From: an uncultured Mollicutes bacterium
GTDB taxonomy: Bacteria; Bacillota_I; Bacilli_A; RFN20; CAG-826
Length of the DNA stretch: 64,000 bases
Direction: 5' to 3'
Assembly (NCBI GenBank): GCA_900539595.1
Contig: UQCQ01000001.1
Span: forward strand, 172,291 to 236,290
Each line of letters starts with the position of its first letter. The first letter of the stretch is position 1. The notes under the pieces were generated by a model that saw nothing but the letters and a program-made list of their open reading frames with translations, did no database searches and was not told where the DNA came from. Below are positions 19,940-36,786 of this stretch, one piece after another. The position numbers and the translations under genes were made by a program.

Positions 19940-19978
19940 AGTGATGTGTACCCATCTAATTAGACTACGTTGAAAACA

Positions 19979-20233: not shown

Positions 20234-20615
20234 TTTCCCCTGGTTCTATCAGGGGTTTTCGGTTACCCGAATTCCTCACGCGTTAGATCCTAAGTCCTAC
20301 ATAGTCCTTTCTTTCCTTTGGAAGAGCAAAGCGTATCCGATAGGAATAGGACGGAAAATAGCGTATTTGTTTCCAGCCCAAGGTACGAAAAAGAATGCCA
20401 ATCAATAGCGTATATTGGCTTTTGTGGACGAGCTGCAGACGGAAGCGGACGGCCATGGCAAGCGTATTTTTGAGACCTGCCAGATGATGGCGTTTCATCA
20501 GTCGGAACCGCCTTCGTTCCTGTAAGCATTATAACAAAACAAAATGCGAATACAATAGGGAAAACAAAGATTTCATCGAACTTTTTTCGATGCCAGGATA
20601 GGATTCTATCGTGTT

Positions 20616-20933
20616 CTATTTAAGGCGTGCGGACGCATCGGAATTATTGTTTTCACTTGCGGAACTTTGTTCGTTCGCGTTGTTTATGGCTGTGCAAATT
20701 TTCTCTATTAGTCCCTTGAATCTATCAAAAATGATTTTGTCATTTTCCGTTAAATGTTCTTTGCCGATTACATTGATTTCAACTTGCTCATTGATTGGTA
20801 CTGATTTAAAGATAAAATCATATAAATCTTTACCAGTAACCGAGTGATCCTTTGAAATGGAAAACAATTTGCTTTCTTCTTCCATGACTACTAATTCTTC
20901 ATCAATACGTTTAATCTGTAATTGTTTTTTCAT
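20616..20933 (-). CDS. Hypothetical 105-aa protein translationally coupled to the upstream PHP-ATPase gene
   Basis: Its start overlaps the stop of the 815-aa gene by 23 bp. It has the same very low GC content and no recognisable motifs. Confidence 0.5.
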   Translation of the reverse strand: MKKQLQIKRIDEELVVMEEESKLFSISKDHSVTGKDLYDFIFKSVPINEQVEINVIGKEHLTENDKIIFDRFKGLIEKICTAINNANEQSSASENNNSDASARLK

Positions 20934-23358
20934 ATCTTTTCCATCTCTTTCTTAATGAATCTACACCGCCATCTAGATTTTCACTTACTATTTTTAAAAT
21001 ATCTAGATTTTTATCCTGATATTCTAGCGCACCACTTTCTATTTGAAGAACGCCATCTTTTGTATCGTGAAAATAAATCACATTATCAGCATCGAGGTTA
21101 ACAACAAATTGGGGATTATGAGTGACTAAAATGATTTGTTTGTTTTTTGACATTTCTTTGAGGTCTTTTACAACGCTTGCTTTGATACTTGGCTGGGAAA
21201 TGTCATCCTCCGGTTGATCAATAATGTAAATGGTATTTTCTTTGCTATGTGCCAAGATATCTATATATTTAGCCGAATTAAAGCCGGCCGAATAAGTTGC
21301 TGTTACATCCTCTCCTTTTTTGATTATGACTTGTTTTGACTTGAGGGCATTTTCTATTTCGGTATCAATTTTAGCCTTCAATATATCAACTGGATCTTCG
21401 GAGGTGGTTTCATCTTTATCTTTTATGGATGATAAAAATTGATCTTTTGTTAAGCTTTTAAGGTCAAAAATTTTATTTAAGTCTGCTCCTTGTTTCATTA
21501 CATTAGCTAATAACTCTTCGCAAAACGAACTATCATAGAAAGCTTTATTGGAAGCAAAGCGACTTACAAGTTTGACATCGCTTAATTCTGTGTATTTATA
21601 GTCTGGTGTGTATTTTTCAAAAGAAAATCTGAAGACTGTAATTTTTGATTTTTTTCTTAGAATGGTCGAGATTTTGTCGGCAAAATGTTCAGAGGTTGTT
21701 TCGAAGGTTGTCCATTTCGCATCTTTGCTATTTTGAATAGCGCTTTGCTCGGAAATTAAAGAATCAATCGAATCATTAATACAATTTCTAATTTTGTTAT
21801 TCCATTCGATAAGATTCGTTTTACTTGAATATTTCTTTATAAGAGACTCGATATTATTACGCGTTTCAGTCAAAAGTTTTTTATCGACAGGGTCTGTGAT
21901 GAATTTAAGTGCTTCATCGATAGGGGTTAATGTTTTTTTGAGATTGGAGACAATTGATTCAAATGTGGAGCTTTCCTCAAAAGAAAAATCGGGTATTTTC
22001 TTTGGCTGTAAAGAAACTCCAGGAGAAGGTTCTATATTCAAATCGATTGTTTCATTGAAAAAATTAAGAATTTCTTGGTCTAAAGAAAATTTATCTGATA
22101 AAGCCCCATAAAATTTTTGAAAACTATTTTCGAGCTTCTCCTTCAAAACGGAAGAATCTGTTTCGGCTGGTTGGAATTTTTTGATGAGGGGATTGGAAAA
22201 GAATGTACCAGTTTCAAATGAATTTCGAATTTCACCTTGGAAGTCGAATTGAAAATTTAGGTTATTTTTAATTCTATCTATTTTTATGTCTTTGCTTTTT
22301 AGGTAATTGGCATATTCTTTCTTTTTCTTAGGTGTTGCTTTTCCGTCATTTGTCTTTCTATAGTTGGTTAACTCATGAAGAAACATCGATTTTCCTTTTG
22401 AGTTGTCACCTATTATCGCATTTATGCCTCGAGACAAAGGTATGCTGAATTTGTTTCCTTTAATACTATAGTCGAGCGATTCGAGAAAATTGTTCGAATT
22501 ATAAAAGAAAGTATTATTGCGAAGTATCCGAGTGTCATCCGTCAAAGCCATGGCCAGCCCTCTAAATGTTGGCAAGCATTTGAGGAAGGTCGGAGACATT
22601 TCTCCTTCCCTAGCGTTGCATTTGTCATGATGTGGGTAGGCCTCCCATTGATGACAATCAGAGCCGGTGATAAAACGAACCTTTTCGTAGGTTTCATTTG
22701 CTCGTTTCTTAAAGAGGTAGTGAAAGACATGGGTGTTTTCGGTCTTGAATTCATAAGCTTCGAAGTACCCAAAATTTAAAAGCTCATTAAATTTATCCGT
22801 TCCTAAAGCTTTTGCATCAGGTGAGGATTGCTTCTCACTCCCTGGCGAGTTTTTTTGGTGCGCAATTAAGCAAACGTTCATTCCGCTTTTTTGAAGTATG
22901 TCTCGGAAGGTTTTTTCAGCAAACATTTGCAAATTATGGGAATTCTTGGATCCAACAGCATCATAATTTTGGGATTTCAACAACCTTTCCAAGTCTTTTA
23001 CTTTTTCATCGTTTGAATCGTCAAATATTGCTATTACATGAACTTGTTTTGTTGTCACAATGCCTTCATCTTTTGTCTCTATTCCGACAGAGAACTCAAC
23101 GCCGGGAAGGATTTTCTTGAATTCTTTTCCTTCGTGTTCTTTCAAAGCATGGTAAAGGGAATAATCAAAGCAATCATGGTCAGTTATAGCAAACATATCT
23201 ATCGAATTATCTTTGAGCTTTGACAATAAGACTGGGATATTTTTAATCGTTCCGTCCTTTACAAGACTTCCGTCTTTTTTTGATGAAGCTGCTGAATGAA
23301 TATGAAAATCGACTTTTTGGCCTTGCAGAACTATCTTATCCATGATGGCGTCCCCCAT
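20911..23358 (-). CDS. PHP phosphoesterase domain fused to an ABC/SMC-type ATPase; Ppl-like defence protein candidate
   Basis: N-terminal PHP motifs (VDFHIHSAASS..., ITDHDC, further His/Asp ligands). Walker A NAIIGDNSKGKSMFL. C-terminal Walker B IYIIDQPEDDIS and H-loop LVTHNPQFV. 815 aa. Confidence 0.6.
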   Translation of the reverse strand: MGDAIMDKIVLQGQKVDFHIHSAASSKKDGSLVKDGTIKNIPVLLSKLKDNSIDMFAITDHDCFDYSLYHALKEHEGKEFKKILPGVEFSVGIETKDEGIVTTKQVHVIAIFDDSNDEKVKDLERLLKSQNYDAVGSKNSHNLQMFAEKTFRDILQKSGMNVCLIAHQKNSPGSEKQSSPDAKALGTDKFNELLNFGYFEAYEFKTENTHVFHYLFKKRANETYEKVRFITGSDCHQWEAYPHHDKCNAREGEMSPTFLKCLPTFRGLAMALTDDTRILRNNTFFYNSNNFLESLDYSIKGNKFSIPLSRGINAIIGDNSKGKSMFLHELTNYRKTNDGKATPKKKKEYANYLKSKDIKIDRIKNNLNFQFDFQGEIRNSFETGTFFSNPLIKKFQPAETDSSVLKEKLENSFQKFYGALSDKFSLDQEILNFFNETIDLNIEPSPGVSLQPKKIPDFSFEESSTFESIVSNLKKTLTPIDEALKFITDPVDKKLLTETRNNIESLIKKYSSKTNLIEWNNKIRNCINDSIDSLISEQSAIQNSKDAKWTTFETTSEHFADKISTILRKKSKITVFRFSFEKYTPDYKYTELSDVKLVSRFASNKAFYDSSFCEELLANVMKQGADLNKIFDLKSLTKDQFLSSIKDKDETTSEDPVDILKAKIDTEIENALKSKQVIIKKGEDVTATYSAGFNSAKYIDILAHSKENTIYIIDQPEDDISQPSIKASVVKDLKEMSKNKQIILVTHNPQFVVNLDADNVIYFHDTKDGVLQIESGALEYQDKNLDILKIVSENLDGGVDSLRKRWKRYEKTITD

Positions 23359-23519
23359 TGAATGATTTAAAAAAGTCTTTTGGTTATGTTTACTATAAGT
23401 AGATTATATTATGAATCGCATTTTATATGAAAAATCAAACGTCAGGAAGGGCGTCAGGTACTTGCTTGCCATTTGGAACAAATCGATTGTTTACGAAGTT
23501 TGAAATGGATAAAGCAAGA

Positions 23520-25286
23520 TTAACCTTTAAGTTTAAACTTTTCTTTGAGGTATTTGTTTAAGTTTTTATCGCAGCAGTAAATATACGTTCCCTTCATTCC
23601 TCTAGTCAGAAGAACGAGATAGGAATTGATGATGTCCTCAATCGTTTTGTTGACATCCGTCCCTACTTTTCCATGCTTATCATAATAGGAACTTGGAACG
23701 AATTCGATGATGCCTTTTTCTTTGTTGAAACGGATATCGTTTGAAAAGATGACGCCTGCATAATTCAGATCATATCCCTGGCAGGTGAAAACCGAGCCGA
23801 TAAGCGATACGGATTTCTTATCGGTTGCGAAGTTTTCGTTGATTCCATTCCAACTGTATTTCTTTCCGTCAATCATAAAATCATAGTCCTGGGTGGAATG
23901 GATTCCTTTCTTATCTCGCATGGATTTTGTGAATGGGAAACCATAGCCAGAGACGACTCGGCATAATCCGTCGTATTCCTTGTCTTTTTCCTTTATCGCA
24001 TCCATCATTTCGGCACAGTCGTCGAATATCTTGAAATCGTATCCTGTAGAACGAAAGTCGGGTGCGTTTTCCTTTGTTTCGTTTCGCAGCAACTTCGACC
24101 AATAGGAGATGTAGTCTTCTCCGGCAATGAGCCGGATCTGATGGTTAATCGGATACCAGTTGTTCTTTTTCTCATCCTTCATGGCAAGGAAATCCTTCTC
24201 TGGAACATCGGCACCGGAGGTGGACTGCTTTCGGTCATAGAAAAAGATTGCGACATGTTTCGCCTGCTTCTTGATCCAGTCGAGCTGAGTGGTGTTTACA
24301 TAGTCAGTGAAACCAAGACGATTATCGGCTTGCTTGAACGAGAGATGGCTTGTGGATTTTCCGTATGTGGCGAGGTGGTGAGCTTCGTCTACTAAGACGA
24401 TGTCGTAGCCTTCTTTTCTCTTCGTCAGGTCGACAGGGCTGACGACATCCACGTTTTTCAAGGATGGTATATTCTTGAACACGGACTTCACCGTGTTTCT
24501 GAACTCCGTCATCGGAGCAACGAAGGCGATGCTCGGCTTTGGAAGATTTGCTAGCTCCCGGTTCATCTGCATGTAGCTGATTGTGCTCTCAAGATCCTCG
24601 TAGCTATCGATGTCGGTATAGTCGATTTTCTGGGTGCAGACGTCTGCGATGTATTTGATGAGGGAGACGGCGAGAATCGATTTCCCGGTCCCCGCTCCTC
24701 CTTCTACGACGATGTTTCTCTTCTGCCCAGTTTTCAATGCGTCGGTTATATCAGCAAGGAGTTTTGCTTCAAGGTCATATTGCTCATCTGTAAGCTGTTT
24801 GAATGGTGAGTATTTGAAAATCTTGGAGTTCTCTACTTGTAGGATGGTTTTGTCTGCTAAGCCCTTGTCTCTCAATTGTTTCCAGATTCTCTTGAACAGC
24901 TCTTTGTATAAGGCACGCTGATAGTAGTTGTGGAACTTGGACTGCCCATTGTTCAGGTTTTGGAGCTCATACTTTCCATCTGCGTGCATGTGCTCGATGA
25001 GCATGTTCTCGATATCCAGAATGGCGGATTTGTTGAACATGTCGTTGAAGAGGACGTATTCGTTTATCATTGGCTTTCTTACGGAATTTTCCAGATGCTG
25101 AAGCATACGATTATATGCGCTTGAGGTTTCACCAACGTAGGCAACAGGCTTCTGCCCGTCTTTTCCATCTAAAATATAGACGACAGGCCAGTCGACTCCT
25201 TTGTTTGTGCTCAAAAGAGCCTTTGCGCCGTCTTCGTTGAAGCTGTATGTTCCGATGGTTGTCGTAGGAAGTGCTGTGTGTTCCAT
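23520..25286 (-). CDS. GIY-YIG nuclease domain fused to a DUF2075-type P-loop NTPase (Schlafen-like helicase-related ATPase)
   Basis: N-terminus VVYILDG....AYVGETSSAYNRMLQHLEN (GIY-YIG). Walker A VVEGGAGTGKSILAVSL and Walker B/DEAH IVLVDEAHHL. Confidence 0.65.
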   Translation of the reverse strand: MEHTALPTTTIGTYSFNEDGAKALLSTNKGVDWPVVYILDGKDGQKPVAYVGETSSAYNRMLQHLENSVRKPMINEYVLFNDMFNKSAILDIENMLIEHMHADGKYELQNLNNGQSKFHNYYQRALYKELFKRIWKQLRDKGLADKTILQVENSKIFKYSPFKQLTDEQYDLEAKLLADITDALKTGQKRNIVVEGGAGTGKSILAVSLIKYIADVCTQKIDYTDIDSYEDLESTISYMQMNRELANLPKPSIAFVAPMTEFRNTVKSVFKNIPSLKNVDVVSPVDLTKRKEGYDIVLVDEAHHLATYGKSTSHLSFKQADNRLGFTDYVNTTQLDWIKKQAKHVAIFFYDRKQSTSGADVPEKDFLAMKDEKKNNWYPINHQIRLIAGEDYISYWSKLLRNETKENAPDFRSTGYDFKIFDDCAEMMDAIKEKDKEYDGLCRVVSGYGFPFTKSMRDKKGIHSTQDYDFMIDGKKYSWNGINENFATDKKSVSLIGSVFTCQGYDLNYAGVIFSNDIRFNKEKGIIEFVPSSYYDKHGKVGTDVNKTIEDIINSYLVLLTRGMKGTYIYCCDKNLNKYLKEKFKLKG

Positions 25287-25590
25287 GTTTTGCGTTTTTT
25301 CTTTGGAAAAGCTTTAGATCCCCAAAGGTCAATTGCGGTATTCGAATGTGATTTCAAAGACGCTTATATGATATCACAAATGTTTTCAGAACTTTTTGGA
25401 AAGGATAAACTCGTAGGAGAATTGTGAAAAACGATGAAAATGGATGAAAATAGCCTGTCAAGTCCTGAAATTCACTATTTTCGAAGCTATAATATAAGTA
25501 GATTAAAGGGCTTTGCCCCATTTGCTTACGATCATGGAGTACGTAAGGAAACAAGACTCCTTAACAAAAGAAAGAAGGAGGTTTTTCTTT

Positions 25591-25743
25591 ATGAACTATG
25601 AGTACACAGTCCTATCCGAGAACAATTATGGAGTGATGCAACAGGAACTCAACAGCTGCGGAAGATATGGGTGGAAACTTGTCAATGTCGTCTGGGACAA
25701 CGACAATGCCTGTTCGGTTGCTGTGATGATGTGGGGGAAATAA
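25591..25743 (+). CDS. DUF4177-like small protein (50 aa), divergent from the DUF2075 gene
   Basis: Consensus RBS AAGGAGGT 8 nt before the ATG at 25591. MNYEYTVLSE....GRYGWKLVNVV resembles DUF4177 (YEYKV....GWELV). Confidence 0.45.
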   Translation: MNYEYTVLSENNYGVMQQELNSCGRYGWKLVNVVWDNDNACSVAVMMWGK

Positions 25744-26014
25744 TCTTTTCCAGCTCTTTTATGTTTCATCTTGTGCACTAGGACTGTCTAGAAACCTAGC
25801 CTTTTTTCGTTTGGTTATAATGTTGCATATTCCTGCCGACAATGTTATATTGTTTATATGGAATTTTAGGATGATATTGGTTTGGCGAAGTTGCTTTTCC
25901 GTGCCATATGCACTCCTGGTTCCTGGGTCGAGCCGTTCAATCAGGGACTTATTGATGACGCTCCTTTAGCAAAGACATGCCTTCCATCGTTTGATGGGAG
26001 AATAGGGGGAGGAA

Positions 26015-29000
26015 ATGGCAGAGTACATAGACAACAAGACCAAGCTTCTTGGTGACGATTTGAAGAAGGAACTTAGCGAATCATCCCAAGTGGAAATCAT
26101 CGCCTCGGTCTTTACTATTTACGCTTTTGAATCCCTGAAAGAAGAACTCGAAAAAGTCTCGGAACTCCGTTTTATCTTTTCTTCGCCTGCCTTTGCCCAG
26201 AAGATGCTAAATGGTGTAGACAAGAAACCCAAGGAATTCATGATATCCGAGGCGTTCTCCAAGACGTCCCTTTATGGGACTTCTTTTGAGTTGAAGCTTA
26301 AGAATCAGCTTACCCAGAAGGCGGTTGCCAGAGAATGCGCAGACTGGATTCGAAAGAAAGTGCGCTTCAAGGCAAACGTGTCCGGTCAGGACGCCAACAG
26401 CTTCATCGCTGTGAACAAACCTTATGATCCTAGCTCTACCATTGCGTATAGCCCTATCGCCTCTGGCTTTTCTAGTGACTCCCTTGGCTATTCGAAGACA
26501 AAGCAGCTTTTCAGCATCACCGTGAAGATAGGGGCCAACGAAGGCGCGTTGTCCTTTTCTAAGAATTTCGAGGATTTCTGGAATGATTCTGAGAAAACAC
26601 AGGATGTCACCGATGCCGTTATCGATTATATCGGAACAGCCTATAAGGACAATTCGCCGGAATTCCTCTATTACGTCACTTTATACAATATCTTCAAGGA
26701 TTTCCTTGATGATATCCTTTCAGAAGACAATATGCCCAATGACGCCACAGGTTATAAGGATTCCCTTATTTGGAAGAAGCTTTACTCCTTCCAAAAAGAC
26801 GGGGCCATTGGCGTCATCAACAAGCTTGAAAAATACAACGGATGCATCCTTGCCGATTCTGTCGGTTTAGGTAAGACATTCACCGCGTTGGCGGTCATGA
26901 AATACTACTCTTCCCGGAACAAGAACATCCTCGTCCTTGCCCCAAAGAGACTCTCCAACAATTGGAACCAATACAAAGACAATCTGAAGACGAACCTTTT
27001 CTGGAATGATCATATCCGCTATGACGTTCTCTACCATACAGATTTGGGAAGATCCAAGGGTTATTCCAATGGCCATGATTTATCTATATTCAACTGGGAG
27101 AACTATGATCTTCTTATTATCGATGAATCCCACAACTTCAGGAATGCCCAACATTTCCGCGGAAGAGAGACGAGATATGAATTCCTGATGAATCATGTCA
27201 TCAAGCCAGGCGTGAAGACCAAGGTTCTCATGCTTTCGGCAACTCCGGTAAACAACCGCTTTACAGATCTTAGAAACCAGTTGGCCCTTGCCTACGGAGA
27301 CAATCAGGAAGAGTTCAACGAAAAACTGGATACCAAGAAAAACGTGGACGTCATCCTCAGAAACGCCCAGCAGACTTATAACGAATGGTGCAAGCTTCCG
27401 AAAGCGGAACGCCATACCAAAGATCTTATGAACAGTTTGGATATGGATTTCTCGGTGCTTCTGGACAACGTCACTATCGCAAGATCGAGAAAGCACATCA
27501 CGAAATACTATGATATGAGTGAAATCGGCCATTTTCCAAAGAGAAAGAAACCTATCTCACTTTATACGGATATTGCCAAGGACGAAGACAGAATCGCCTA
27601 TGATGATTTGTTCAAGACGCTGAAACAATTAAGACAGGCAGTCTACGCCCCGATGAATTACATCCAGCCGAGCAAACTGGTAAAATACGAGAACATGTAC
27701 GACACTACCGGAGTTGCCGGCAATCGCCCTGATCTCAAGCAGATCAACCGTGAGCTCGCCCTTCAGAACCTGATGACCGTGTCCCTCCTCAAACGACTTG
27801 AATCCTCCGTGGATGCGTTCCGAATCACCTTAAGCCATGTGAAGAATGTCAACAAGAACACTCTTTCGGCTATCGAAAATTTTGAGAGACTCCATATTTC
27901 AAGTCTCAAAGGCGAATTCGCCAACATCAATCCTGACGATTTCGACGAAGAGGATATGGATAACGACGAGAAGTGGGGGACCACAGGCAAGATCACCATC
28001 GACTTCGCCGATATGGACCTGCTTTCCTTCAAGAACGACATCACACGCGATATCGAAATCCTTTCCGGTTTATTGGAACTCATGGAATGGATCACTCCTT
28101 CCAAGGATTTGAAACTGAACAAGCTTGTCTCCATCATCGAGGACAAGATTTCGAATCCAATCAATCCTGGTAACCGGAAAGTGCTTATCTTTTCCGCATT
28201 CGCCGATACGGCAAACTACCTTTATGAAAACCTGTCAGTCCATTTCAAGGAAAAGTATGGAATGAATAGTGCGGTCGTTACCGGAAGCAAAACGAACAAG
28301 TCTACTATTGCTTCTCTTCATGACACCGAGGAAATCCTCACCTTGTTCTCTCCGCTTTCCAAGGAAAAAAGGGTCAAGATGCCGAATGATAATCGTAACA
28401 TCGATATTCTTATTGCTACGGACTGTCTTTCCGAAGGACAGAACCTGCAGGATTGTGATGAGTGCATCAATTACGATATCCATTGGAATCCAGTGAGAAT
28501 CGTCCAGAGATTCGGCCGTATCGACCGAATCGGCTCCAAGAACGACTATATCCAGCTCGTCAATTTCTGGCCGAATATGTCTTTGGATGAATACATCAAC
28601 CTGACCAACCGTGTCGAAAATCGTATGTCCATCGTCGATGCCACGGCAACCGGGGATGACAACATCATCTCCGAAGAGAATGTAGAGCTTGATTACCGCA
28701 AGGAGCAGCTCAAGAAACTCCAGAACGGCGAACTCCAGGATCTGGAGGATATCGACGGCTCCATTACGATTACGGATCTTGGATTGAATGACTTTAGAAT
28801 GGACCTCGCTAACTATATCCGTGAGAAAGGTTATCCTGATGGTGTTCCCTATGGCTTATATGCCGTCACAAAGGAAGACAAGGAAAAAGGAATCGTTCCT
28901 GGTGTGATCTTTGCCTTGAAGAATACCAATGACAAGGTATCCATCCACACGAAGAACAGACTCCATCCTTATTATCTTGTTTATCTCGATATGGATGGAA

Positions 29001-29296
29001 ACGTTGTCTATGACTATACCCAGGTGAAGAAAATACTCGATGTGATGCGGACAATATCCAAGCATCATCCGGAACCGGACCGCTCCCTCTGTTCTTCTTT
29101 TAACAAGGAAACGAAGGATGGAACCAAAATGGAGAAGTATTCGGATCTCCTCGAGGCGTCTGTCGCCTCGATCATCGACGTGAAGAAACAGGATGATTTC
29201 GCTTCCCTGCTATCCGATGGAAGCGATGTTCTTTATGACGGAGGCATAAAGGGGTTAGATGACTTCCAGCTCGTCAGCTTCTTTGTGATCAGATAA
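26015..29296 (+). CDS. SNF2-family helicase with a ~250-aa N-terminal extension of unknown function
   Basis: Motif I LADSVGLGKTFTALAV, motif II LLIIDESHNFRN, motif III LMLSATPVNN, motif VI QRFGRIDRIGS. It is the first gene of a four-gene operon ending in a type III R-M pair. Confidence 0.8.
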   Translation: MAEYIDNKTKLLGDDLKKELSESSQVEIIASVFTIYAFESLKEELEKVSELRFIFSSPAFAQKMLNGVDKKPKEFMISEAFSKTSLYGTSFELKLKNQLTQKAVARECADWIRKKVRFKANVSGQDANSFIAVNKPYDPSSTIAYSPIASGFSSDSLGYSKTKQLFSITVKIGANEGALSFSKNFEDFWNDSEKTQDVTDAVIDYIGTAYKDNSPEFLYYVTLYNIFKDFLDDILSEDNMPNDATGYKDSLIWKKLYSFQKDGAIGVINKLEKYNGCILADSVGLGKTFTALAVMKYYSSRNKNILVLAPKRLSNNWNQYKDNLKTNLFWNDHIRYDVLYHTDLGRSKGYSNGHDLSIFNWENYDLLIIDESHNFRNAQHFRGRETRYEFLMNHVIKPGVKTKVLMLSATPVNNRFTDLRNQLALAYGDNQEEFNEKLDTKKNVDVILRNAQQTYNEWCKLPKAERHTKDLMNSLDMDFSVLLDNVTIARSRKHITKYYDMSEIGHFPKRKKPISLYTDIAKDEDRIAYDDLFKTLKQLRQAVYAPMNYIQPSKLVKYENMYDTTGVAGNRPDLKQINRELALQNLMTVSLLKRLESSVDAFRITLSHVKNVNKNTLSAIENFERLHISSLKGEFANINPDDFDEEDMDNDEKWGTTGKITIDFADMDLLSFKNDITRDIEILSGLLELMEWITPSKDLKLNKLVSIIEDKISNPINPGNRKVLIFSAFADTANYLYENLSVHFKEKYGMNSAVVTGSKTNKSTIASLHDTEEILTLFSPLSKEKRVKMPNDNRNIDILIATDCLSEGQNLQDCDECINYDIHWNPVRIVQRFGRIDRIGSKNDYIQLVNFWPNMSLDEYINLTNRVENRMSIVDATATGDDNIISEENVELDYRKEQLKKLQNGELQDLEDIDGSITITDLGLNDFRMDLANYIREKGYPDGVPYGLYAVTKEDKEKGIVPGVIFALKNTNDKVSIHTKNRLHPYYLVYLDMDGNVVYDYTQVKKILDVMRTISKHHPEPDRSLCSSFNKETKDGTKMEKYSDLLEASVASIIDVKKQDDFASLLSDGSDVLYDGGIKGLDDFQLVSFFVIR

Positions 29297-29298
29297 CC

Positions 29299-30006
29299 AT
29301 GTTCATATTACCGAGTAAAGCGTATGTTCATCGCGAATACCCGCTTAAGGATGTCTATAAGGCGATTGGGGCAGACAAGAAGCTGATAGAGGCTTCCAAG
29401 AACATCAAGAAGATCTACATCGAATACGTCTTCAACCAGAAGAACACTAACCTTCAGGTGAAGTCGGTCAAGGAAATCCATTTCTATAAGATAGAGCTGA
29501 CAGACTTCCACGTGCCGGAGGACTTCATCCTGGCACTGGACAAGAAGGATAAGTTCCAGGTGGTGTTCATTATCACGTGTGAGGACTTGGAGAAGGATAT
29601 GACCGCTCCCAAGAGAATCAATGGGGAGGAGGTTACAAAAGCCAAATACATCCAGTCCGAATGGATGAAGATAGGGGATGATGTCAAGATACCTCCTGCC
29701 GATACTTTGGATGAACTATACTGCTTCCTCTATGGAGCCTTCAACGAATATAAGCCCTTCAAAGGTGAACTGCTTGAGAATTATATTAAAAGATGTAATG
29801 AACTGAGGAAACTCGATTATCAGATCAGTAAGACCACGATGGCAATCCAGAATGAAAGACAGTCGAAGAAGAGAATCGAATACAATCACAATCTGAACGA
29901 ATACAAAGAAAGAAAATCCTATCTATTAAACCAAAGGAGAATGGAAAATGCAGAAATTATCAGCGCAATCGAAGGATTTGTCTCAGGAGAACATAAAGAA
30001 GGTTGA
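29299..30006 (+). CDS. Hypothetical 235-aa protein between the SNF2 helicase and the methyltransferase (possibly DUF4391-type)
   Basis: Its start lies 3 bp after the SNF2 stop, and its end overlaps the mod start by 59 bp. The family assignment is inferred from the recurring helicase / DUF4391 / MTase / Res synteny, not from motifs. Confidence 0.45.
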   Translation: MFILPSKAYVHREYPLKDVYKAIGADKKLIEASKNIKKIYIEYVFNQKNTNLQVKSVKEIHFYKIELTDFHVPEDFILALDKKDKFQVVFIITCEDLEKDMTAPKRINGEEVTKAKYIQSEWMKIGDDVKIPPADTLDELYCFLYGAFNEYKPFKGELLENYIKRCNELRKLDYQISKTTMAIQNERQSKKRIEYNHNLNEYKERKSYLLNQRRMENAEIISAIEGFVSGEHKEG

Positions 30007-31849
30007 GGAATTATTCCCCAACTGCGTGACCGAAACCTATGACCAGGACGGCAACCTCGTCAGAAGCATCGACTTCGACATCCTCCGCCAGGACCTCTCC
30101 GACCATGTCGTGGAAGGCCCGAAGGAGAGATACCAGTTCAACTGGCCTGGAAAGAGAGATGCCATCCTTTTAGCAAACGCACCGACCACGAACACATTGA
30201 GACCTTTGCCAGAGAAGTCCGTCAATTTCGAGAATACGAAGAACGTCTATATCGAAGGAGATAACCTCGAGGCTCTGAAAATCCTCAGAGAGACCTACAT
30301 GGGCAAGATCAAGATGATCTACATCGACCCACCGTACAATACAGGTAATGATTTCGTCTATAAAGATGACTTCAAACAGTCTACTGAAGAATATTTGAAA
30401 TCATCCGGCGACATCGACGAGGAAGGCAACCGCATGGAAGTCAACGGAGAATCCAACGGAAGATTCCATTCAGACTGGCTCAATATGATGTATCCAAGAC
30501 TCGTTCTCGCAAGAGACTTGCTCACGGATGATGGATTGATCTTCATGAGCATCGATGACAATGAGCAGGACAATTTAGTTCGTCTAGGAAAAGAAATATT
30601 TGGCGAATCGAATTTTGTGGCGACTTTTCCTTGGAGAAAACGCACTGCGAAATCTGATGTGCCTTTTGGTGTTTCGCAGGATTTTGAATGGGTTCTCTGC
30701 TTTGCTAAATCGAGTCAAACAAGAGTTAGTATTGAAGGAAAAGAAAGAAAATACTTTGAAACGGATGATTTTCCAGGGCGTCCCTGGCGAATTCATGATT
30801 TGACTAAGCAAACCACAGCGTCTGAACGACCTAACAGTTACTTCACTATTGTGGATAAAAAAAGAAATATATCTTACCCTGCAAACCCAAATAGAACATG
30901 GTGTGTCTCTAAAGACACTTTTTCCCAATATGATGCTGAAAATCGAATCGTCTATCCTGGAGACTATCCTTTTTTGAAAATATCGCAGCCTGTTCTAAGA
31001 TATTGGAAAGAAGACGATCAGAAAAAAGATGGCGAATTATTCGGACGTGTTGCATTAAGCACATTATTTCCACAAAGTGTAGGAATGTCCCAAGATGGAA
31101 GTAAAGATGTTTTTAAATTATTCAATTCCAAAATATTCAGCTTTCCAAAGCCGGTCTCATTGATAAAGTATTTAATATCTGCTGCTACGCAAGAAGACGA
31201 TTTAATCGCAGATTTCTTTTCCGGATCCGCCACCACCGCAGAAGCCGTTTTCAAGCAAAACCTTGAAGATAATGGAAACAGAAAATTTCTTTTGATACAG
31301 ATGCCGGAACACACCGGTGATACTGAAGCCTTTAAAAATGGTTTTTCAGATATTTGCAGCCTTGCTGAGGAAAGAATACGTCGTGCAGGAAAAGTTATCA
31401 AAGAGGAAAATCTTCTTACTATAGAGGGATTTGATTTTGGATTTCGTGTATTTAAGACCGATTCTTCCAATATGAAGGATGTTTTGAGTACTCCAAAAGA
31501 AACTCAGCTGAGTCTTCTTGAAAATGCTGAGTCTGCTATTAAACCTGACCGAAGTCCTCTTGATCTTGTCACTCAAGTTATGCTTCAGCTGGGCATGACT
31601 CTCGATGCTGATATAAAAATTGGAAAGTTTGCGGGCGGAGGGCAATTCTATGCCGTTAACGGCAATGATCTCGTCTGCTGCTTTGATAAGAACATTTCCG
31701 AATCTAACATTGAGGAACTGGCTCGGATACAGCCTTTAAACGTTGCATTCAAAGATGATTCCTTTGCTTCTGATCAGGATGAAGTCAACTGTGAGCAGAT
31801 ATTTAAGACTCTTTCTCCGATTACCGGTAAAAATATCTTTGTTCTTTGA
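29948..31849 (+). CDS. mod: Type III restriction-modification Mod subunit (beta-class N6-adenine DNA methyltransferase)
   Basis: Motif IV MIYIDPPYNTGNDF precedes motif I DFFSGSATT (beta order). 633 aa, with a 4-bp overlap onto res. Confidence 0.8.
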   Translation: MQKLSAQSKDLSQENIKKVEELFPNCVTETYDQDGNLVRSIDFDILRQDLSDHVVEGPKERYQFNWPGKRDAILLANAPTTNTLRPLPEKSVNFENTKNVYIEGDNLEALKILRETYMGKIKMIYIDPPYNTGNDFVYKDDFKQSTEEYLKSSGDIDEEGNRMEVNGESNGRFHSDWLNMMYPRLVLARDLLTDDGLIFMSIDDNEQDNLVRLGKEIFGESNFVATFPWRKRTAKSDVPFGVSQDFEWVLCFAKSSQTRVSIEGKERKYFETDDFPGRPWRIHDLTKQTTASERPNSYFTIVDKKRNISYPANPNRTWCVSKDTFSQYDAENRIVYPGDYPFLKISQPVLRYWKEDDQKKDGELFGRVALSTLFPQSVGMSQDGSKDVFKLFNSKIFSFPKPVSLIKYLISAATQEDDLIADFFSGSATTAEAVFKQNLEDNGNRKFLLIQMPEHTGDTEAFKNGFSDICSLAEERIRRAGKVIKEENLLTIEGFDFGFRVFKTDSSNMKDVLSTPKETQLSLLENAESAIKPDRSPLDLVTQVMLQLGMTLDADIKIGKFAGGGQFYAVNGNDLVCCFDKNISESNIEELARIQPLNVAFKDDSFASDQDEVNCEQIFKTLSPITGKNIFVL

Positions 31850-34800
31850 GGAATTTAATTATGAAATTCATATTTAAAGAACAGGATTACCAGATATCGG
31901 CTGTGAAAGCTGTCACGGATGTTTTTGCTGGACAACGTTATCAGTCGCTTTCTCAATACACACGTGACTTGGGAAAACTTTCACCGAAAGAAGCTGGCAA
32001 GAATCAGCAATTAAGACTTGACTTAGGGCTTAATAACAAAAGCGACCTTTTGGTGGCCAAAGGCAACGATAATGATGATTTAGCCATAGGTTTTGCTAAT
32101 GCGCCAATTCAGATTGATGATCAACAGGCCTTGAAAAATATTCAAACCATTCAGATGAAATCCAATTTATCGGTGGATGAGCATCTTTCCAAAGTTCTTA
32201 GCCCTTTGGACTTAGATGTGGAGATGGAGACCGGAACGGGTAAAACCTATGTCTATATCCGCACAATGTTTGAGTTGAATAAACTTTACGGCTTTTCTAA
32301 ATTCATCGTCATGGTTCCATCCATTGCTATTCGTGAAGGTGTCAAGAAGTCATTCGAACAGACTCAGGAACACTTCATGTCCATCTACGGGAAGAAAGCC
32401 CGTTTCTTTATTTATAGCAGTGCAAACCTGGCTGAAATCGATAACTTCGCCAAAGATAGTTCCATCGAAGTGATGATCATCAACATCCAGGCTTTCAATA
32501 CGCACGGCAAGGACGGACGAAAGATTTATGAGGAACTCGATGAATTCCAGTCCAGAAGACCGATCGACGTCATCAAGAAGACTAGACCGATTCTGATTCT
32601 TGATGAGCCACAGAAGATGAGTGGAGACGCTACCAAATCTTCCATAGGTGAATTCAATCCACTTTTCACCATTAACTACTCGGCTACGCACAAAGAAAAA
32701 CACAATCTTGTATATGTTCTTGATGCCTTGGACGCCTATAACGCGAAGCTTGTTAAGAAAATCCAGGTAAAAGCAGTCAAGGTCGATAATGTCAAAGGAA
32801 CCCAGGCTTTCTTATATTTGGAGGATATCATCCTTCGAGGTGATAAAGATCCTCAGGCGAAAATCAGCTTCTTCCGCAACACCAAGCAAGGAATCAAATC
32901 CTATACACAGCTGCTTAGTCGCCAAGACAACATCTATGAACTATCCGGTTTTGATGCCACAAGCCAATTATCGGTCTATAAGAACAACTATATCGTCGAT
33001 GAAATCGATTATGTATCAAATACCGTCAGATTGCTGAACGGCATTGTTTTGCATGCCGGAGAAGTGATTGGGGATAACTCGGAAGATTTGATAAGAAGAA
33101 TACAAATCCGTGAGACTATCGCTTCCCATTTGGAAAAGGAGCAGGATAATTTCCATAAAGGAATAAAGACCCTTTCTCTTTTCTTCATCGACGAAGTCAA
33201 AAAATATAGAGACTATTCTCAGCCCGATGAAAAAGGCGAATATGCCAAGATTTTCGAGGAAGAATACAACTGGGCGGTTACTGAATTTTGCAATAACCTC
33301 ATCAACACAGATGAGGAATATAAGAAGTATCTTCAGCTATTTACTCCTGATCAGGTCCATAACGGCTATTTTTCCATCGATAAGAAAGGACATGCAATCG
33401 ATTCCAAAGCGGATCGCAAGACAGGTTTATCCGATGATCAATCCGCCTATGATTTGATTTTGAAGAACAAGGAACGTCTTCTTTCCTTCGATGAGCCCAC
33501 TCGTTTCATATTCTCCCATTCTGCCTTACGGGAGGGATGGGACAACCCGAATGTCTTCCAAATCTGCTTCTTAAGACATACCAAGAGCGAAACTCAGAAA
33601 CGGCAGGAAGTGGGTCGTGGTCTTCGTATCGCCGTAGATAAGAACGGAAACCGTCAAGACGCCACTGTTTTAAGTGATTTCTTCGGCGTGAATAAGCTTA
33701 CTGTCATTGCTAATGAGGATTACGAGTCATTCGTAAAAGGATTGCAGTCTGAAATCAAGGAAGTCCTCTATAAGCATCCGACCAAGGCGGACAAGGACTT
33801 CTTCTTTGGCAAGCCGATCACGAACGCAGAAACCAATGCTGAAACCAACATTACGGATGCTCAGGCTAGAAGCATTTACCAGTATTTGGTGAAAAACGAT
33901 TATGTGGATGCTTCTGACAATCTTACAGAGAAATTCCGTGACGATGTGGATAAGTCCATATTAGTTGACATGCCGGAAGATTTGAAACCTTATCAGGCAT
34001 CCATCATCGAACTTGCAAACAGCATCCGCAAAGGCGGAAATATTGAAATCGAAAACGGCAAGAAACCTAAGGTTCTCGAAAACAAAGTCAATCAGAATTT
34101 CGATAGAAAGGAATTCAAAGAGCTTTGGAACGCCATCAACCATAAGTACTCCTATCGCGTTTCCTTCAGCTCTGACGAATTAGTTAAGAATTGCATCGAA
34201 AGAATCAAGAAAGAATTGGAAGTTTCTAAAATAACCTATTCGGTCGATGTCGGTGAGCAGAAAGAAACTATTGATCAGAAAGATATTGATAATTCCTTCC
34301 AAAGAGGTGCCGATAGTGGAAAGAAAGAAAAACTCCATGTTGCTGCTCCTTCTTCTGCAAAATACGATCTTGTTCACGAAATAGCTCAGCGCACGCATCT
34401 TACTCGAAGAACGATTGTCCGTATTCTCGTCGGGACAAAAGAAAAGCTTCAGATGTTCCGTAATAACCCGGAAGAATACATCACAAAGATTAGTAATCTG
34501 ATTGATGATGAAAAGGCCTCTGTGATTGTTCGTGGCATCCGCTATGACAAATTGACTGACAAATTTGACGATACCATTTTCAACGAAAAGCACGCCGATT
34601 TTGATAGTCAGAAGGCTTTCAAATCCAAAAAGGCAATCCAGGATTATGTCTTTGTCGACGGTACCGCCAAAAACGGCGAATCCAATGAGATGAAGTTTGT
34701 CAAAAATCTTGAACAGCAAGAAAACGTCAAGGTATACGCAAAAATGCCTAAAGGTTTTTATATTCCTACTCCGATGGGAAGATATTCTCCTGACTGGGCC

Positions 34801-35028
34801 ATCGTCTATGAATCCAATGGCGAAAAAGGCATTTATTTCATTGCTGAAACGAAAGGAAACTTGAGTTCCTTATCTTTGCGAAAGGTTGAGGAATCCAAGA
34901 TTGAATGCGCGAAGAGCCTTTATAACCAGCCCAAATCCAAGGTCAATTATGGCTTAGTACATACCTATGATGATCTTGTCACGAAGGTGATGGACATTTT
35001 GGAAAAACACAACGGAGAGCAATCATGA
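31846..35028 (+). CDS. res: Type III restriction enzyme Res subunit (SF2 helicase plus C-terminal PD-(D/E)xK nuclease)
   Basis: Walker A VEMETGTGKTYV and DEPQ box ILILDEPQKM. C-terminal YSPDWAIVYE...IAETKG nuclease motif. 1060 aa. Confidence 0.8.
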   Translation: MRNLIMKFIFKEQDYQISAVKAVTDVFAGQRYQSLSQYTRDLGKLSPKEAGKNQQLRLDLGLNNKSDLLVAKGNDNDDLAIGFANAPIQIDDQQALKNIQTIQMKSNLSVDEHLSKVLSPLDLDVEMETGTGKTYVYIRTMFELNKLYGFSKFIVMVPSIAIREGVKKSFEQTQEHFMSIYGKKARFFIYSSANLAEIDNFAKDSSIEVMIINIQAFNTHGKDGRKIYEELDEFQSRRPIDVIKKTRPILILDEPQKMSGDATKSSIGEFNPLFTINYSATHKEKHNLVYVLDALDAYNAKLVKKIQVKAVKVDNVKGTQAFLYLEDIILRGDKDPQAKISFFRNTKQGIKSYTQLLSRQDNIYELSGFDATSQLSVYKNNYIVDEIDYVSNTVRLLNGIVLHAGEVIGDNSEDLIRRIQIRETIASHLEKEQDNFHKGIKTLSLFFIDEVKKYRDYSQPDEKGEYAKIFEEEYNWAVTEFCNNLINTDEEYKKYLQLFTPDQVHNGYFSIDKKGHAIDSKADRKTGLSDDQSAYDLILKNKERLLSFDEPTRFIFSHSALREGWDNPNVFQICFLRHTKSETQKRQEVGRGLRIAVDKNGNRQDATVLSDFFGVNKLTVIANEDYESFVKGLQSEIKEVLYKHPTKADKDFFFGKPITNAETNAETNITDAQARSIYQYLVKNDYVDASDNLTEKFRDDVDKSILVDMPEDLKPYQASIIELANSIRKGGNIEIENGKKPKVLENKVNQNFDRKEFKELWNAINHKYSYRVSFSSDELVKNCIERIKKELEVSKITYSVDVGEQKETIDQKDIDNSFQRGADSGKKEKLHVAAPSSAKYDLVHEIAQRTHLTRRTIVRILVGTKEKLQMFRNNPEEYITKISNLIDDEKASVIVRGIRYDKLTDKFDDTIFNEKHADFDSQKAFKSKKAIQDYVFVDGTAKNGESNEMKFVKNLEQQENVKVYAKMPKGFYIPTPMGRYSPDWAIVYESNGEKGIYFIAETKGNLSSLSLRKVEESKIECAKSLYNQPKSKVNYGLVHTYDDLVTKVMDILEKHNGEQS

Positions 35029-35219
35029 ACTATGCCGAGAAACTAAAAAAAATCCGTGAAACTTTACTATTATCTCAGGATGAATTGGCCAAAGAACTTA
35101 GTGTTACTTTTGCAACCGTGAATCGTTGGGAAAACGGACATCATGAGCCATCGCTAAAAGGAAAGAAGGCCATCAGAGATTACTGCAAGAAAATGCACAT
35201 TAAATTGGAAAAGGATTAA
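35025..35219 (+). CDS. XRE-family helix-turn-helix protein (64 aa)
   Basis: LSQDELAKELSVTFATVNRWENGHHEPS is a canonical Cro/CI-type HTH. Its start overlaps the res stop by 4 bp. Confidence 0.6.
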   Translation: MNYAEKLKKIRETLLLSQDELAKELSVTFATVNRWENGHHEPSLKGKKAIRDYCKKMHIKLEKD

Positions 35220-36701: not shown

Positions 36702-36786
36702 TGGTGCGGGCAACAGGACTTGAACCTGCACGGAGTTACCCATTAGATCCTAAGTCTAACGCGTCTGCCAATTTCGCCATGCCCGC
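36702..36786 (-). tRNA. tRNA-Leu (anticodon TAG)
   Basis: The reverse complement folds as a class II tRNA: acceptor GCGGGCA/TGCCCGC, anticodon stem TTAGA/TCTAA with loop CTTAGGA, a long variable arm, T-arm GCAGG-TTCAAGT-CCTGT, and CCA encoded. Confidence 0.8.

What the first reader, a model, noticed from the sequence alone, without database searches (positions are those of the whole stretch)
23520..25743. GIY-YIG nuclease fused to a DUF2075 ATPase, paired divergently with a DUF4177-like mini-protein
The 588-aa protein starts with a recognisable GIY-YIG module (VYILDG...YVGETS...R..QH..E). It continues into a P-loop NTPase with Walker A GAGTGKS and a DEAH-like Walker B (VLVDEAHHL), as in DUF2075 / Schlafen-related helicase-like ATPases. 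A nuclease-plus-NTPase single-gene unit inside a defence island, with its own promoter region and a divergent 50-aa DUF4177-like gene carrying a perfect AAGGAGGT RBS, is a plausible standalone defence or abortive-infection gene. It does not correspond to any named system that I can place from sequence.
Basis: partly seen in the sequence, partly recalled or inferred. Interest (0 to 1): 0.6.

Follow-up and report, generated by a model that had tools for sequence, protein, structure and literature searches.

The report
GIY-YIG nuclease–helicase defence gene, solo
The 588-aa gene is a real fusion of a GIY-YIG DNA-cutting domain to a Schlafen/DUF2075-type helicase and is probably a stand-alone anti-phage gene of the Nhi type, but the 50-aa gene next to it is not its partner: it is a repeated "linker" gene found between many different defence genes.

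Summary

Close and distant homologues lie in non-syntenic, defence-rich contexts, and the gene is essentially absent from viral contigs. The best reading is an Nhi-type nuclease-helicase effector in which GIY-YIG replaces the PD-(D/E)XK or NERD nuclease. It is unvalidated and is not called by PADLOC.

The proposed pairing with the 50-aa DUF4177-like gene is not supported. That gene is real (dN/dS about 0.02-0.15). However, with its 150-bp leader it forms a roughly 300-bp module that recurs between at least 10 unrelated defence cargos. It is absent from 82-83 % identical homologues and from 78 of 80 genome loci; the other two hits are a 15-residue fragment and a chance-level match.

The family's real conserved partner is a DCTPP1-like MazG gene, adjacent in 60 of 80 genomes but absent here. 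The gene sits in a 16.5-kb island bounded by a repeat of tRNA-Leu.

The parts
23520..25286 (-). 588-aa GIY-YIG nuclease / SF1 (DUF2075, Schlafen group-3 type) helicase fusion gene: the finding itself.
   Evidence: The ORF is. PF09848 matches at E 7.7e-61. There are 696 homologues, mostly 560-610 aa. The full-length AlphaFold model has pLDDT 85 and pTM 0.81.
24912..25199 (-). GIY-YIG nuclease domain (about residues 30-125), with invariant catalytic residues Y37, Y50, R60, H64, E93 and N110.
23562..24719 (-). SF1 helicase/ATPase core (residues 190-575). Walker A GGAGTGKS is at nt 24678-24701 and Walker B DEAH is at nt 24372-24398. Motif III is FYDxxQ, motif V is QGxD and motif VI is LLTRG.
   Evidence: The invariant residues are G196, A198-K202, D300, E301, H303, F349-D351, Q354, Q383, R385, Q503, G504, D506 and T561-G563. 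The top Foldseek PDB hits are Upf1, Dna2, nsp13, SLFN14 and RecD.
25444..25744 (+). Module R, a repeated roughly 300-bp unit. It comprises a sigma-70-like promoter (25465-25493), a conserved roughly 95-nt leader, the RBS AAGGAGGT (25575-25582) and the 50-aa DUF4177-like ORF (25591-25743). It is a generic island linker, not a dedicated partner of the target.
   Evidence: blastn shows sharp boundaries in more than 50 loci. The copies are aligned. dN/dS is 0.02-0.15. There are 86 homologue clusters.
23385..23480 (+). Probable decayed 5' part of a module R, lying between the 815-aa gene and the target. It keeps the promoter -10/TSS block and part of the leader but has no ORF.
   Evidence: Repeat D6 is a 15/16 match, and the alignment is. 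L143 has [A] PHP-ABC [R]. This is weak evidence and a tentative assignment.
20911..23358 (-). 815-aa PHP / ABC-type ATPase (Ppl/TrlF-like). It is an independent co-cargo in the same slot, with its own promoter-like site at 23431-23403.
   Evidence: NCBIfam TrlF_fam_ATP matches at E 5e-50 and PADLOC Ppl at 4e-19. Elsewhere it occurs without the target (cluster c19 in L110, L140 and L143).
20286..20638 (+). Module A, the conserved 353-bp left end of the island/slot. It contains four AGCGTAT repeats (20330-20467) and a terminator-like hairpin (20574-20592, minus strand).
   Evidence: blastn is, the motif count, the hairpin and the locus maps.
20278..20296 (+). Left copy of the island-bounding direct repeat (ACGCGTTAGATCCTAAGTC).
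   Evidence: This is repeat D4 of the repeat finder: 17 of 19 positions match, 14 of them in one exact run, to 36738-36756.
36702..36786 (-). tRNA-Leu(tag). Its anticodon stem-loop (36738-36756) is the right copy of the direct repeat, and it marks the right boundary of the 16.5-kb island.
   Evidence: ARAGORN is and the repeat. In L088, L096, L102 and L116 the 3' half of this tRNA directly abuts module A, and no intact tRNA is present.
26015..35028 (+). Neighbouring R-M-like operon: HKD-SNF2 (1093 aa), DUF4391, an N6/N4 methyltransferase and a Res-type helicase-endonuclease. It lies in the same sequence block as module R when the window is compared with L007.
   Evidence: PADLOC C3a139 matches at E 9e-120. 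Identities to L007 are 97.7, 93.6, 64.8 and 96.8 %.

Best explanation
The gene encodes one polypeptide that couples an ATP-driven SF1 helicase/translocase (DUF2075, Schlafen group-3 type) to an N-terminal GIY-YIG endonuclease.

I propose it is a stand-alone anti-phage or anti-mobile-element effector that works like Nhi. The motor would load on foreign DNA, most likely replication or recombination intermediates with single-stranded regions. It would unwind or translocate using ATP and feed the DNA to the GIY-YIG site, which nicks or cleaves it and so blocks accumulation of phage DNA.

What is shown here:
- both domains and their folds;
- intact catalytic and helicase motifs;
- a patchy, non-syntenic, defence-rich distribution.

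What is inferred:
- the defence role;
- the substrate;
- the order of events.

In this genome the gene is a solo cargo in a variable slot of a tRNA-Leu-associated defence island. The adjacent 50-aa gene belongs to a repeated linker module and not to this gene. In most other lineages the same protein is encoded in an operon with a DCTPP1-like MazG NTP pyrophosphohydrolase, so the ancestral or commoner form is probably a two-gene system.
For: Domain evidence:
- Full-length PF09848 match, with every SF1 motif invariant.
- The fold is closest to Upf1, Dna2, nsp13, RecD and SLFN14.
- The GIY-YIG fold and catalytic residues are confirmed.

Context of close homologues: they sit in different defence contexts.
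- A tandem DUF2075 paralogue plus a NERD protein.
- Downstream of a type I HsdR.
- Beside an SNF2 R-M operon.
- Beside a T5orf172/ResIII cluster.

Context of distant homologues:
- Across 48 genome loci, flanks share a median of 1 and at most 4 of about 15 ORFs.
- Their nearest neighbours include type IV and type I restriction enzymes, PLD nucleases, GmrSD, PD-Lambda-1, GajB-like proteins and DRT.

Domain accretions on the same scaffold:
- HSDR_N, the Nhi-type nuclease.
- A C-terminal LexA-type Peptidase_S24 domain in 6 of the 10 long forms tested.
- A MazG fusion.

Precedent: the validated proteins Nhi and Nhi-like share the nuclease-plus-DUF2075 plan.

Setting in the window:
- The island also holds Wadjet, a Ppl-like ATPase and an SNF2 R-M operon.
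- It is bounded by a tRNA-Leu repeat.
- GC content is mosaic, 37-51 %.
Against: - There is no experimental evidence for any member of this GIY-YIG subfamily.
- PADLOC's Nhi and AbiO models match only the Walker A region (E 4e-10 and 1e-8), so homology to Nhi beyond the shared DUF2075/SF1 fold is not shown.
- The MazG-like partner (a house-cleaning enzyme type) and the S24 (SOS-type) fusions could equally point to a DNA-damage or repair role.
- The near-versus-far PADLOC comparison was not a clean control, because the distal ORFs also contain R-M genes.
- No sigma-70-like promoter at the scan's threshold was found in the target's own upstream region.
Confidence: 0.6

Rival explanations
1. It is a modification-dependent (type IV-like) restriction motor. 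The protein would recognise and cut DNA that carries modified cytosines. In the two-gene form, the DCTPP1-like MazG partner would destroy the matching modified dNTP pool. This is still defence, but the trigger is self/non-self discrimination by base modification and not replication intermediates.
For: - The partner's closest solved relatives are dCTP pyrophosphatase 1 / RS21-C6 (E 1e-19). From my own knowledge, that enzyme prefers 5-modified dCTP.
- 5 of 34 loci have a DUF3427 type IV restriction enzyme within two ORFs, an association Lutz et al. 2019 also noted.
Against: - No modification-reading domain (SRA, PUA, DUF3427 or similar) is detectable in the protein.
- The window's copy lacks MazG altogether.
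- The specificity of the MazG partner is untested.
Confidence: 0.2
2. It is a DNA-repair or SOS-linked housekeeping nuclease-helicase. On this reading it would resemble a Dna2/UvrC-type processing enzyme that merely happens to lie in islands.
For: - 60 of 80 genomes pair the gene with a MazG-like nucleotide 'house-cleaning' enzyme.
- A sub-branch carries a LexA/UmuD-type S24 domain.
- The gene is common in Microbacteriaceae.
Against: - Flanks are non-syntenic even among about 15 Microbacterium species.
- The taxonomic distribution is patchy and includes clear horizontal transfer (77 % identity in Alistipes; an archaeal MAG).
- Neighbours are repeatedly restriction or defence genes.
- In this lineage the gene is an exchangeable cargo of a variable slot.
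Confidence: 0.12
3. This is the first reader's model: a two-gene unit in which the divergent 50-aa DUF4177-like protein is a functional partner (regulator, antitoxin or sensor) of the nuclease-helicase.
For: - In 12 loci of this gut lineage the mini-gene lies divergently upstream of the target family, with at least three different right-hand neighbours.
- The mini-gene is a real protein under purifying selection.
Against: - 47 of 59 module-bearing loci have other genes beside the module.
- The mini-gene is absent from 82-83 % identical homologues. In the 80 genome loci it gives no real hit, only a 15-residue fragment in L011 and a chance-level match in L052.
- GmrSD_N genes occupy the same position and orientation relative to it.
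- The module is sometimes present twice within 3-6 kb (L097, L116, L126).
- The block boundary with L007 separates it from the target.
Confidence: 0.04
4. It is a selfish homing-type GIY-YIG endonuclease gene, and its variable context reflects its own mobility and not a defence function.
For: - The genomic contexts are highly variable.
Against: - There is no intron, intein or free-standing homing context.
- The nuclease is always fused to a 400-aa helicase with intact motifs.
- The gene is essentially absent from 2.9 million viral contigs.
- Its mobility here is explained by a slot bounded by conserved modules.
Confidence: 0.04

Closest known systems
Nhi (SERP2475, Staphylococcus epidermidis; Bari et al. 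2022)
   Same: A single polypeptide with an N-terminal nuclease followed by a DUF2075/SF1 helicase. It is a stand-alone defence gene, and its structural relatives are Upf1, Dna2 and Dda.
   Different: Nhi's nuclease is PD-(D/E)XK/HsdR-N-like, whereas here it is GIY-YIG. PADLOC's Nhi model matches only around Walker A (E 4e-10). No activity data exist for this protein.
Nhi-like (Millman et al. 2022)
   Same: A predicted N-terminal nuclease plus DUF2075, validated as a single-gene defence. The authors themselves named it by domain organisation alone, without sequence identity to Nhi.
   Different: Its nuclease is a NERD domain, which is a different fold from GIY-YIG.
PADLOC candidate PDC-S14
   Same: It shares a related N-terminal domain: E 8e-12 to residues 27-132 of the target.
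   Different: The PDC-S14 models are about 280-320 positions long and the match covers only the nuclease part. They have no DUF2075 helicase. PDC-S14 is a computational candidate, not a validated system.
Eukaryotic Schlafen group III proteins (SLFN5/11/13/14)
   Same: The C-terminal helicase belongs to the same Pfam family (PF09848). The plan is a nuclease in front of the helicase with a role in virus restriction. SLFN14 structures are among the fold hits.
   Different: The N-terminal Schlafen nuclease is an RNase of an unrelated fold that targets tRNA/rRNA. Sequence identity in the helicase is only about 10 %.
GIY-YIG single-gene defence proteins (PD-T4-3, PD-Lambda-1, Uzume)
   Different: They have no helicase or NTPase module. 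PD-T4-3 is a modification-dependent restriction enzyme of 248 aa.
tRNA-integrated genomic islands and integron-type cassette arrays (for the A/R modules)
   Same: The island is bounded by a direct repeat of a tRNA gene, with a displaced tRNA half at the far end. Variable cargo lies between short conserved repeated modules.
   Different: No integrase or other site-specific recombinase was found in the island. The repeated unit is a protein-coding mini-gene with its own promoter, not an attC-like hairpin. A and R share no boundary repeat of 10 nt or more.

Membership tests
GIY-YIG nuclease superfamily | Sequence motifs and catalytic residues: GIY...YIG, then Arg, then Glu and Asn, at canonical spacing. 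| tested here: met
   Y37 (VVY), Y50-V-G52, R60, H64, E93 and N110 are invariant in 34 sequences. The Y50-to-R60 spacing is 10 and the R60-to-E93 spacing is 33.
GIY-YIG nuclease superfamily | The alpha/beta GIY-YIG fold. | tested here: met
GIY-YIG nuclease superfamily | A Pfam PF01541 score above the gathering cutoff. | tested here: inconclusive
   The window protein scores 17.7 bits, and 21.1 bits as an isolated domain, against a cutoff of 22.6. 14 of 16 family members hit at E <= 0.01, with a best E of 5.7e-07.
PF09848 (DUF2075 / Schlafen group-3 helicase) and SF1 helicases | A full-length profile match and intact motifs I, II, III, V and VI. | tested here: met
   E 7.7e-61, covering profile positions 2-354 of 354. 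The motif residues are invariant. The fold hits are SF1B helicases.
Nhi (PADLOC model / Bari et al.) | Full-length similarity to the Nhi family model. | tested here: not met
   PDLC02372 Nhi gives E 4e-10, with the best stretch covering only residues 165-213. AbiO behaves the same way.
Nhi (PADLOC model / Bari et al.) | An N-terminal PD-(D/E)XK (HsdR-N-like) nuclease. | tested here: not met
   The N-terminal domain is GIY-YIG. One relative, P0342, has HSDR_N in addition.
Nhi (PADLOC model / Bari et al.) | Anti-phage activity that depends on both the nuclease and the helicase. | not testable with these tools
   This needs phage challenge assays with active-site mutants.
PADLOC PDC-S14 | A match over the whole candidate model. 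| tested here: not met
   Only profile positions 56-163 of 301 match residues 27-132.
DUF4177 (the mini-protein) | A Pfam PF13783 score above the cutoff. | tested here: inconclusive
   16.8 bits against a cutoff of 25. 23 of 42 homologues hit at E <= 0.01, with a best E of 3e-05. The NCBIfam Sp36_fam hit is also sub-threshold, 22.9 against 50 bits.
Two-gene unit 'GIY-YIG-DUF2075 + DUF4177' (as proposed) | Co-occurrence of the two genes across genomes. | tested here: not met
   The 80 genome loci give no real hit, only a 15-residue fragment in L011 and a chance-level match in L052. None of the 6 loci with 82-83 % identical homologues has it. Only 12 of 59 module-bearing loci have the target family adjacent.
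Two-gene module 'MazG-like + GIY-YIG-DUF2075' (found here) | An adjacent, co-oriented PF12643 gene. | tested here: not met
   The gene is present in 60 of 80 genome loci. tblastn finds none anywhere in the 64-kb window or in the window's own clade.

The most novel reading that the evidence does not exclude
The roughly 300-bp mini-gene module R (promoter, conserved leader and a 50-aa DUF4177-like protein) may form the boundary elements of a cassette-exchange system, together with the tRNA-Leu-side module A. On this reading the system assembles and reshuffles defence islands in a gut Bacillota lineage. The small protein, or its leader RNA, would play an active part, for example as a shared regulator of adjacent cassettes or as a recombination-directing factor, and would not be a mere passive patch of homology. 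On that reading the GIY-YIG-helicase gene is one of at least eight interchangeable cargos.

A second reading is also not excluded. The MazG(DCTPP1-like) + GIY-YIG-DUF2075 operon, found in 60 of 80 genomes, could be an undescribed two-gene defence system aimed at phages with modified cytosines.
Probability: 0.25. Interest if true: 0.75.

Novelty: new variant of a known kind. Interest (0 to 1): 0.5.

Why it matters
If it is validated, the gene would extend the Nhi/Schlafen-type nuclease-helicase defence class to a third, unrelated nuclease fold (GIY-YIG). That would show that the DUF2075 motor is a modular chassis onto which different nucleases are swapped. The same logic links bacterial defence to the vertebrate Schlafen restriction factors.

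The family-level findings give concrete handles on how such motors are triggered:
- an operon with a DCTPP1-like MazG enzyme across phyla;
- LexA-type S24 fusions;
- an HSDR_N + GIY-YIG double-nuclease form.

Separately, the repeated mini-gene module and the tRNA-Leu-bounded slot offer a tractable example of how defence islands are assembled from exchangeable cassettes in uncultured gut bacteria.

Tried and rejected
- A phmmer search of the whole protein against PDB sequences found nothing at E <= 1. The fold had to be tested by modelling.
- Rfam (E-value mode) over 19800-26200 found nothing, so neither module A nor the mini-gene leader is a known RNA.
- RNAalifold on the leader predicts a fold that sequesters the Shine-Dalgarno sequence. 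The covariation term is about 0 and only one pair is compensatory, so I make no RNA-structure claim.
- The NCBIfam 'Sp36' lead for the mini-protein is a Methanosarcina inhibitor of ammonium transport. The hit is sub-threshold and gives no functional lead.
- The viral-contig scan for the family found one distant helicase-only hit, so the gene is not phage-borne.
- The near-versus-far PADLOC comparison was meant as an enrichment test. The distal ORFs also contain R-M genes, so I replaced it with a synteny test.
- I searched for shared direct or inverted repeats at the cargo-facing ends of modules A and R. Nothing of 10 nt or more was found, so there is no evidence for an attC-like common site.
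- The ORF 'c5' that overlaps module A was first considered as a split gene. It is not called as a gene in other contigs, and its 'C-terminal half' turned out to be the tRNA-Leu sequence.
- Literature searches for MazG + DUF2075 and for Schlafen + prokaryotic + GIY-YIG found no papers.
Full report
**1. Observation**

The 50-aa ORF lies at 25591-25743 (+), behind AAGGAGGT at 25575-25582.

Pfam gives a full-length PF09848 match (SLFN-g3_helicase, the former DUF2075) at E 7.7e-61. The GIY-YIG hit on this protein alone is sub-threshold (17.7 against 22.6 bits), and so is the DUF4177 hit on the mini-protein (16.8 against 25 bits).

The neighbours are defence genes:
- Wadjet JetABCD at 13491-19939.
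- An 815-aa PHP/ABC ATPase that resembles TrlF and Ppl.
- An HKD-SNF2 / DUF4391 / methyltransferase / Res operon (PADLOC C3a139, E 9e-120).

Polysaccharide-synthesis genes lie to the left, and MgsA and other housekeeping genes lie to the right.

**2. The protein**

A search of 5.8 billion proteins returned 696 homologues. Nearly all are 560-610 aa, and many carry precomputed PF01541 + PF09848 hits.

In a 34-sequence alignment (down to 44 % identity), the N-terminal 125 residues are the most conserved part. Y37, Y50, G52, E53, R60, H64, E93 and N110 are invariant at GIY-YIG spacing. The SF1 motifs are also invariant:
- Walker A, G196-K202.
- Walker B, D300/E301/H303.
- FYDxxQ at 349-354.
- Q383/R385.
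- QGxD at 503-506.
- TRG at 561-563.

The full-length model (pLDDT 85, pTM 0.81) matches SF1B helicases best: Upf1, Dna2, coronavirus nsp13, RecD and SLFN14.

Evidence for the isolated N-domain:
- 14 of 16 family N-termini hit PF01541.
- The best PDB profile hit is T4 EndoII, though it is weak (E 0.077).

So the fusion of a GIY-YIG nuclease with a DUF2075 helicase is real, and both active sites look intact.

An exhaustive search with the N-domain alone finds 337 clusters (50 % identity level) at E <= 1e-10. The domain is N-terminal in nearly all listed hits, and the full-length hits are mostly proteins of about 580 aa. This nuclease subtype is therefore tightly tied to this helicase.

**3. Context of the gene**

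Close homologues sit in unrelated places:
- At 83 % identity, in tandem with a second DUF2075 protein near a NERD protein, between housekeeping genes (L001-L004).
- At 82 %, downstream of a type I HsdR (L005).
- At 93 %, beside the same SNF2 operon as in the window (L007).
- Other copies lie beside a T5orf172/ResIII cluster (L088-L092).

In species-representative genomes, at least 567 stretches encode a relative. They span Bacillota, many Actinomycetota, Alistipes (77 % identity, which implies horizontal transfer), Alcaligenes and an archaeal MAG.

Among 48 loci with full 10-kb flanks, no pair shares more than 4 of about 15 flanking ORFs, and the median is 1. Nearest neighbours include type IV (DUF3427) and type I restriction enzymes, PLD nucleases, GmrSD, PD-Lambda-1, GajB-like helicases and DRT. 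The distal control was not clean.

The family is essentially absent from 2.9 million viral contigs.

**4. The supposed partner**

The mini-ORF is a real gene:
- There are 86 homologue clusters, most about 50 aa long.
- dN/dS is about 0.02-0.15.
- One decayed copy exists, L097a.

It is not a partner of the target:
- It is missing next to the 82-83 % identical homologues.
- In the 80 genome loci it gives no real hit, only a 15-residue fragment in L011 and a chance-level match in L052.
- Between the window and L007, the high-identity block starts about 150 bp upstream of the mini-ORF and runs into the SNF2 operon, whereas the target's own 5' region cannot be aligned.

Looking up contigs that encode mini-protein homologues, and probing metagenomes with the invariant leader sequence, gave 59 module-bearing loci. 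In these loci a roughly 300-bp unit (module R: promoter, about 95-nt leader, RBS and ORF) has sharp boundaries. It is flanked by many different genes:
- two types of GmrSD_N protein;
- full-length GmrSD;
- a KAP NTPase;
- a different DUF2075 gene with type I R-M;
- PHP-ABC/T5orf172/methyltransferase clusters;
- the SNF2 operon;
- IS elements.

Only 12 of the 59 loci have the target family next to the module. Three contigs carry two copies of the module (L097, L116, L126).

**5. The slot and the island**

A second conserved element, module A (20286-20638), lies in fixed orientation to the left of R. Between A and R lie 1-6 variable genes, making at least eight different cargo sets. In the window, the slot holds the PHP-ABC ATPase and the target.

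The spacer between those two genes retains a decayed 5' part of a module R, and elsewhere the PHP-ABC gene occupies an A-R slot alone (L143). This fits two cassettes that were once separate.

Module A holds 4 of the window's 7 AGCGTAT sites within 138 bp and ends with a terminator-like hairpin.

Its left edge coincides with a 19-nt direct repeat (17 of 19 positions, 14 in one exact run). The other copy of that repeat is the anticodon stem-loop of tRNA-Leu(tag) at 36702-36786. In four other contigs, module A directly abuts 55-80 nt of the 3' half of that tRNA, and no intact tRNA is present.

The target therefore lies in a 16.5-kb tRNA-Leu-associated island (about 20297-36756). Its GC content is mosaic, 37-51 %. 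No integrase is present among the ORFs scanned.

**6. The family's real partner and accretions**

- In 60 of 80 genome loci, a roughly 106-aa MazG-like gene lies immediately adjacent and co-oriented. It matches PF12643 at E 4e-19, and its closest solved relatives are DCTPP1/RS21-C6 at E 1e-19.
- 57 of these copies are upstream and 3 are downstream, with gaps of -22 to +90 nt. They occur across Actinomycetota, Bacillota and an archaeon.
- The window and its own clade lack this gene.
- Among ten proteins examined (nine longer than about 660 aa and one 331-aa fragment), six carry a C-terminal Peptidase_S24 (LexA/UmuD-type) domain and one has HSDR_N in front of the GIY-YIG domain. The 331-aa fragment has MazG fused to the N-domain.
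- Neither the MazG pairing nor this subfamily is described in the searchable literature. Lutz et al. 2019 mention GIY-YIG/DUF2075 fusions in one sentence.

**7. Interpretation**

The best-supported mechanism is an Nhi-type single-polypeptide nuclease-helicase. An SF1 motor would act on foreign DNA and be coupled to GIY-YIG cleavage.
- Shown: the domains, folds, intact motifs and island behaviour.
- Inferred: the defence role, the substrate and the trigger.

It works like Nhi and Nhi-like. It is not a member by sequence model or by nuclease fold, so I rate it a new variant of a known kind.

The rivals are set out separately:
- modification-dependent restriction with dNTP-pool sanitation by MazG;
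- a repair or SOS role;
- the mini-protein pair;
- a selfish homing endonuclease.

**8. Verdict**

- Interest is moderate for the gene itself.
- It rises somewhat because of the conserved MazG operon, the S24 fusions and the repeated mini-gene linker inside a tRNA-bounded cassette island. None of these was part of the original finding.

Noticed in passing
window 25444-25744; L088-L116, L118-L145: Module R is a roughly 300-bp unit made of a promoter, a conserved leader and a 50-aa DUF4177-like gene. It recurs at 78-95 % identity between at least 10 unrelated defence gene sets in gut metagenome contigs, and sometimes occurs twice per contig. It behaves like a linker or boundary between defence cassettes.
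   Followed up: partly
window 20278-20638 and 36702-36786: Module A (353 bp, with four AGCGTAT repeats) starts at a 19-nt direct repeat of the anticodon stem-loop of tRNA-Leu(tag), which lies 16.5 kb away. In other contigs, A abuts a displaced 3' half of that tRNA. This implies a tRNA-Leu-integrated island, yet no integrase was found.
   Followed up: partly
L020, L022, L024-L087 (60 of 80 genome loci), about 300 nt upstream or downstream of the match: A roughly 106-aa MazG-like (PF12643, DCTPP1-like) gene lies directly adjacent to and co-oriented with the GIY-YIG-DUF2075 gene in Actinomycetota, Bacillota and an archaeon. This looks like an undescribed conserved two-gene module. It is absent from the window.
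   Followed up: partly
proteins P0217, P0221, P0231, P0244, P0250, P0254; P0342; P0288: The same scaffold occurs in several variant forms. Six proteins carry a C-terminal LexA/UmuD-type Peptidase_S24 domain. P0342 has an extra N-terminal HSDR_N nuclease. The fragment P0288 has MazG fused to the GIY-YIG domain.
   Followed up: no
window 25605-25715 compared with L007 7562-7702: Inside a block that is otherwise about 97 % identical, the centre of the mini-ORF is scrambled between the window and L007 (53 % aa identity). The leader and the downstream spacer are nearly identical. This points to localised replacement or diversification.
   Followed up: partly
window 25500-25595: The mini-gene leader has an invariant GGAGT...ACTCC hairpin. 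Its CTCCT arm can instead pair with the Shine-Dalgarno AGGAG, which would make a translational switch possible. There is no covariation support and no Rfam match.
   Followed up: partly
window 29948-31849: The methyltransferase of the SNF2/DUF4391/MTase/Res operon is only 65 % identical to its L007 counterpart. The flanking SNF2, DUF4391 and Res genes are 94-98 % identical. This is probably an exchange of the target-recognition domain.
   Followed up: no
window 20616-20933 (-) and 20911-23358 (-): A 105-aa ORF overlaps the 3' end of the 815-aa PHP/ABC ATPase gene (Ppl/TrlF-like) by 23 nt. It may be a small second component of that system. A similar 90-aa gene follows the 783-aa PHP protein in L110.
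   Followed up: no
window 13491-19939 (-): A complete Wadjet (JetA, JetB/MksE-like, JetC, JetD) operon lies immediately left of the tRNA-Leu repeat. At 47-51 % its GC content is higher than that of the adjacent cargo (37 %).
   Followed up: no
L001-L004 5960-9791: In the 83 %-identical homologue's locus, a second and divergent DUF2075 protein (625 aa, 26 % identical over the helicase) lies in tandem directly upstream. A NERD-domain protein lies nearby.
   Followed up: no
window 35200-36159 (-) and 36227-36601 (-): A DUF3644 protein and an unannotated 124-aa ORF occupy the tRNA-proximal end of the island, where an integrase would be expected.
   Followed up: no
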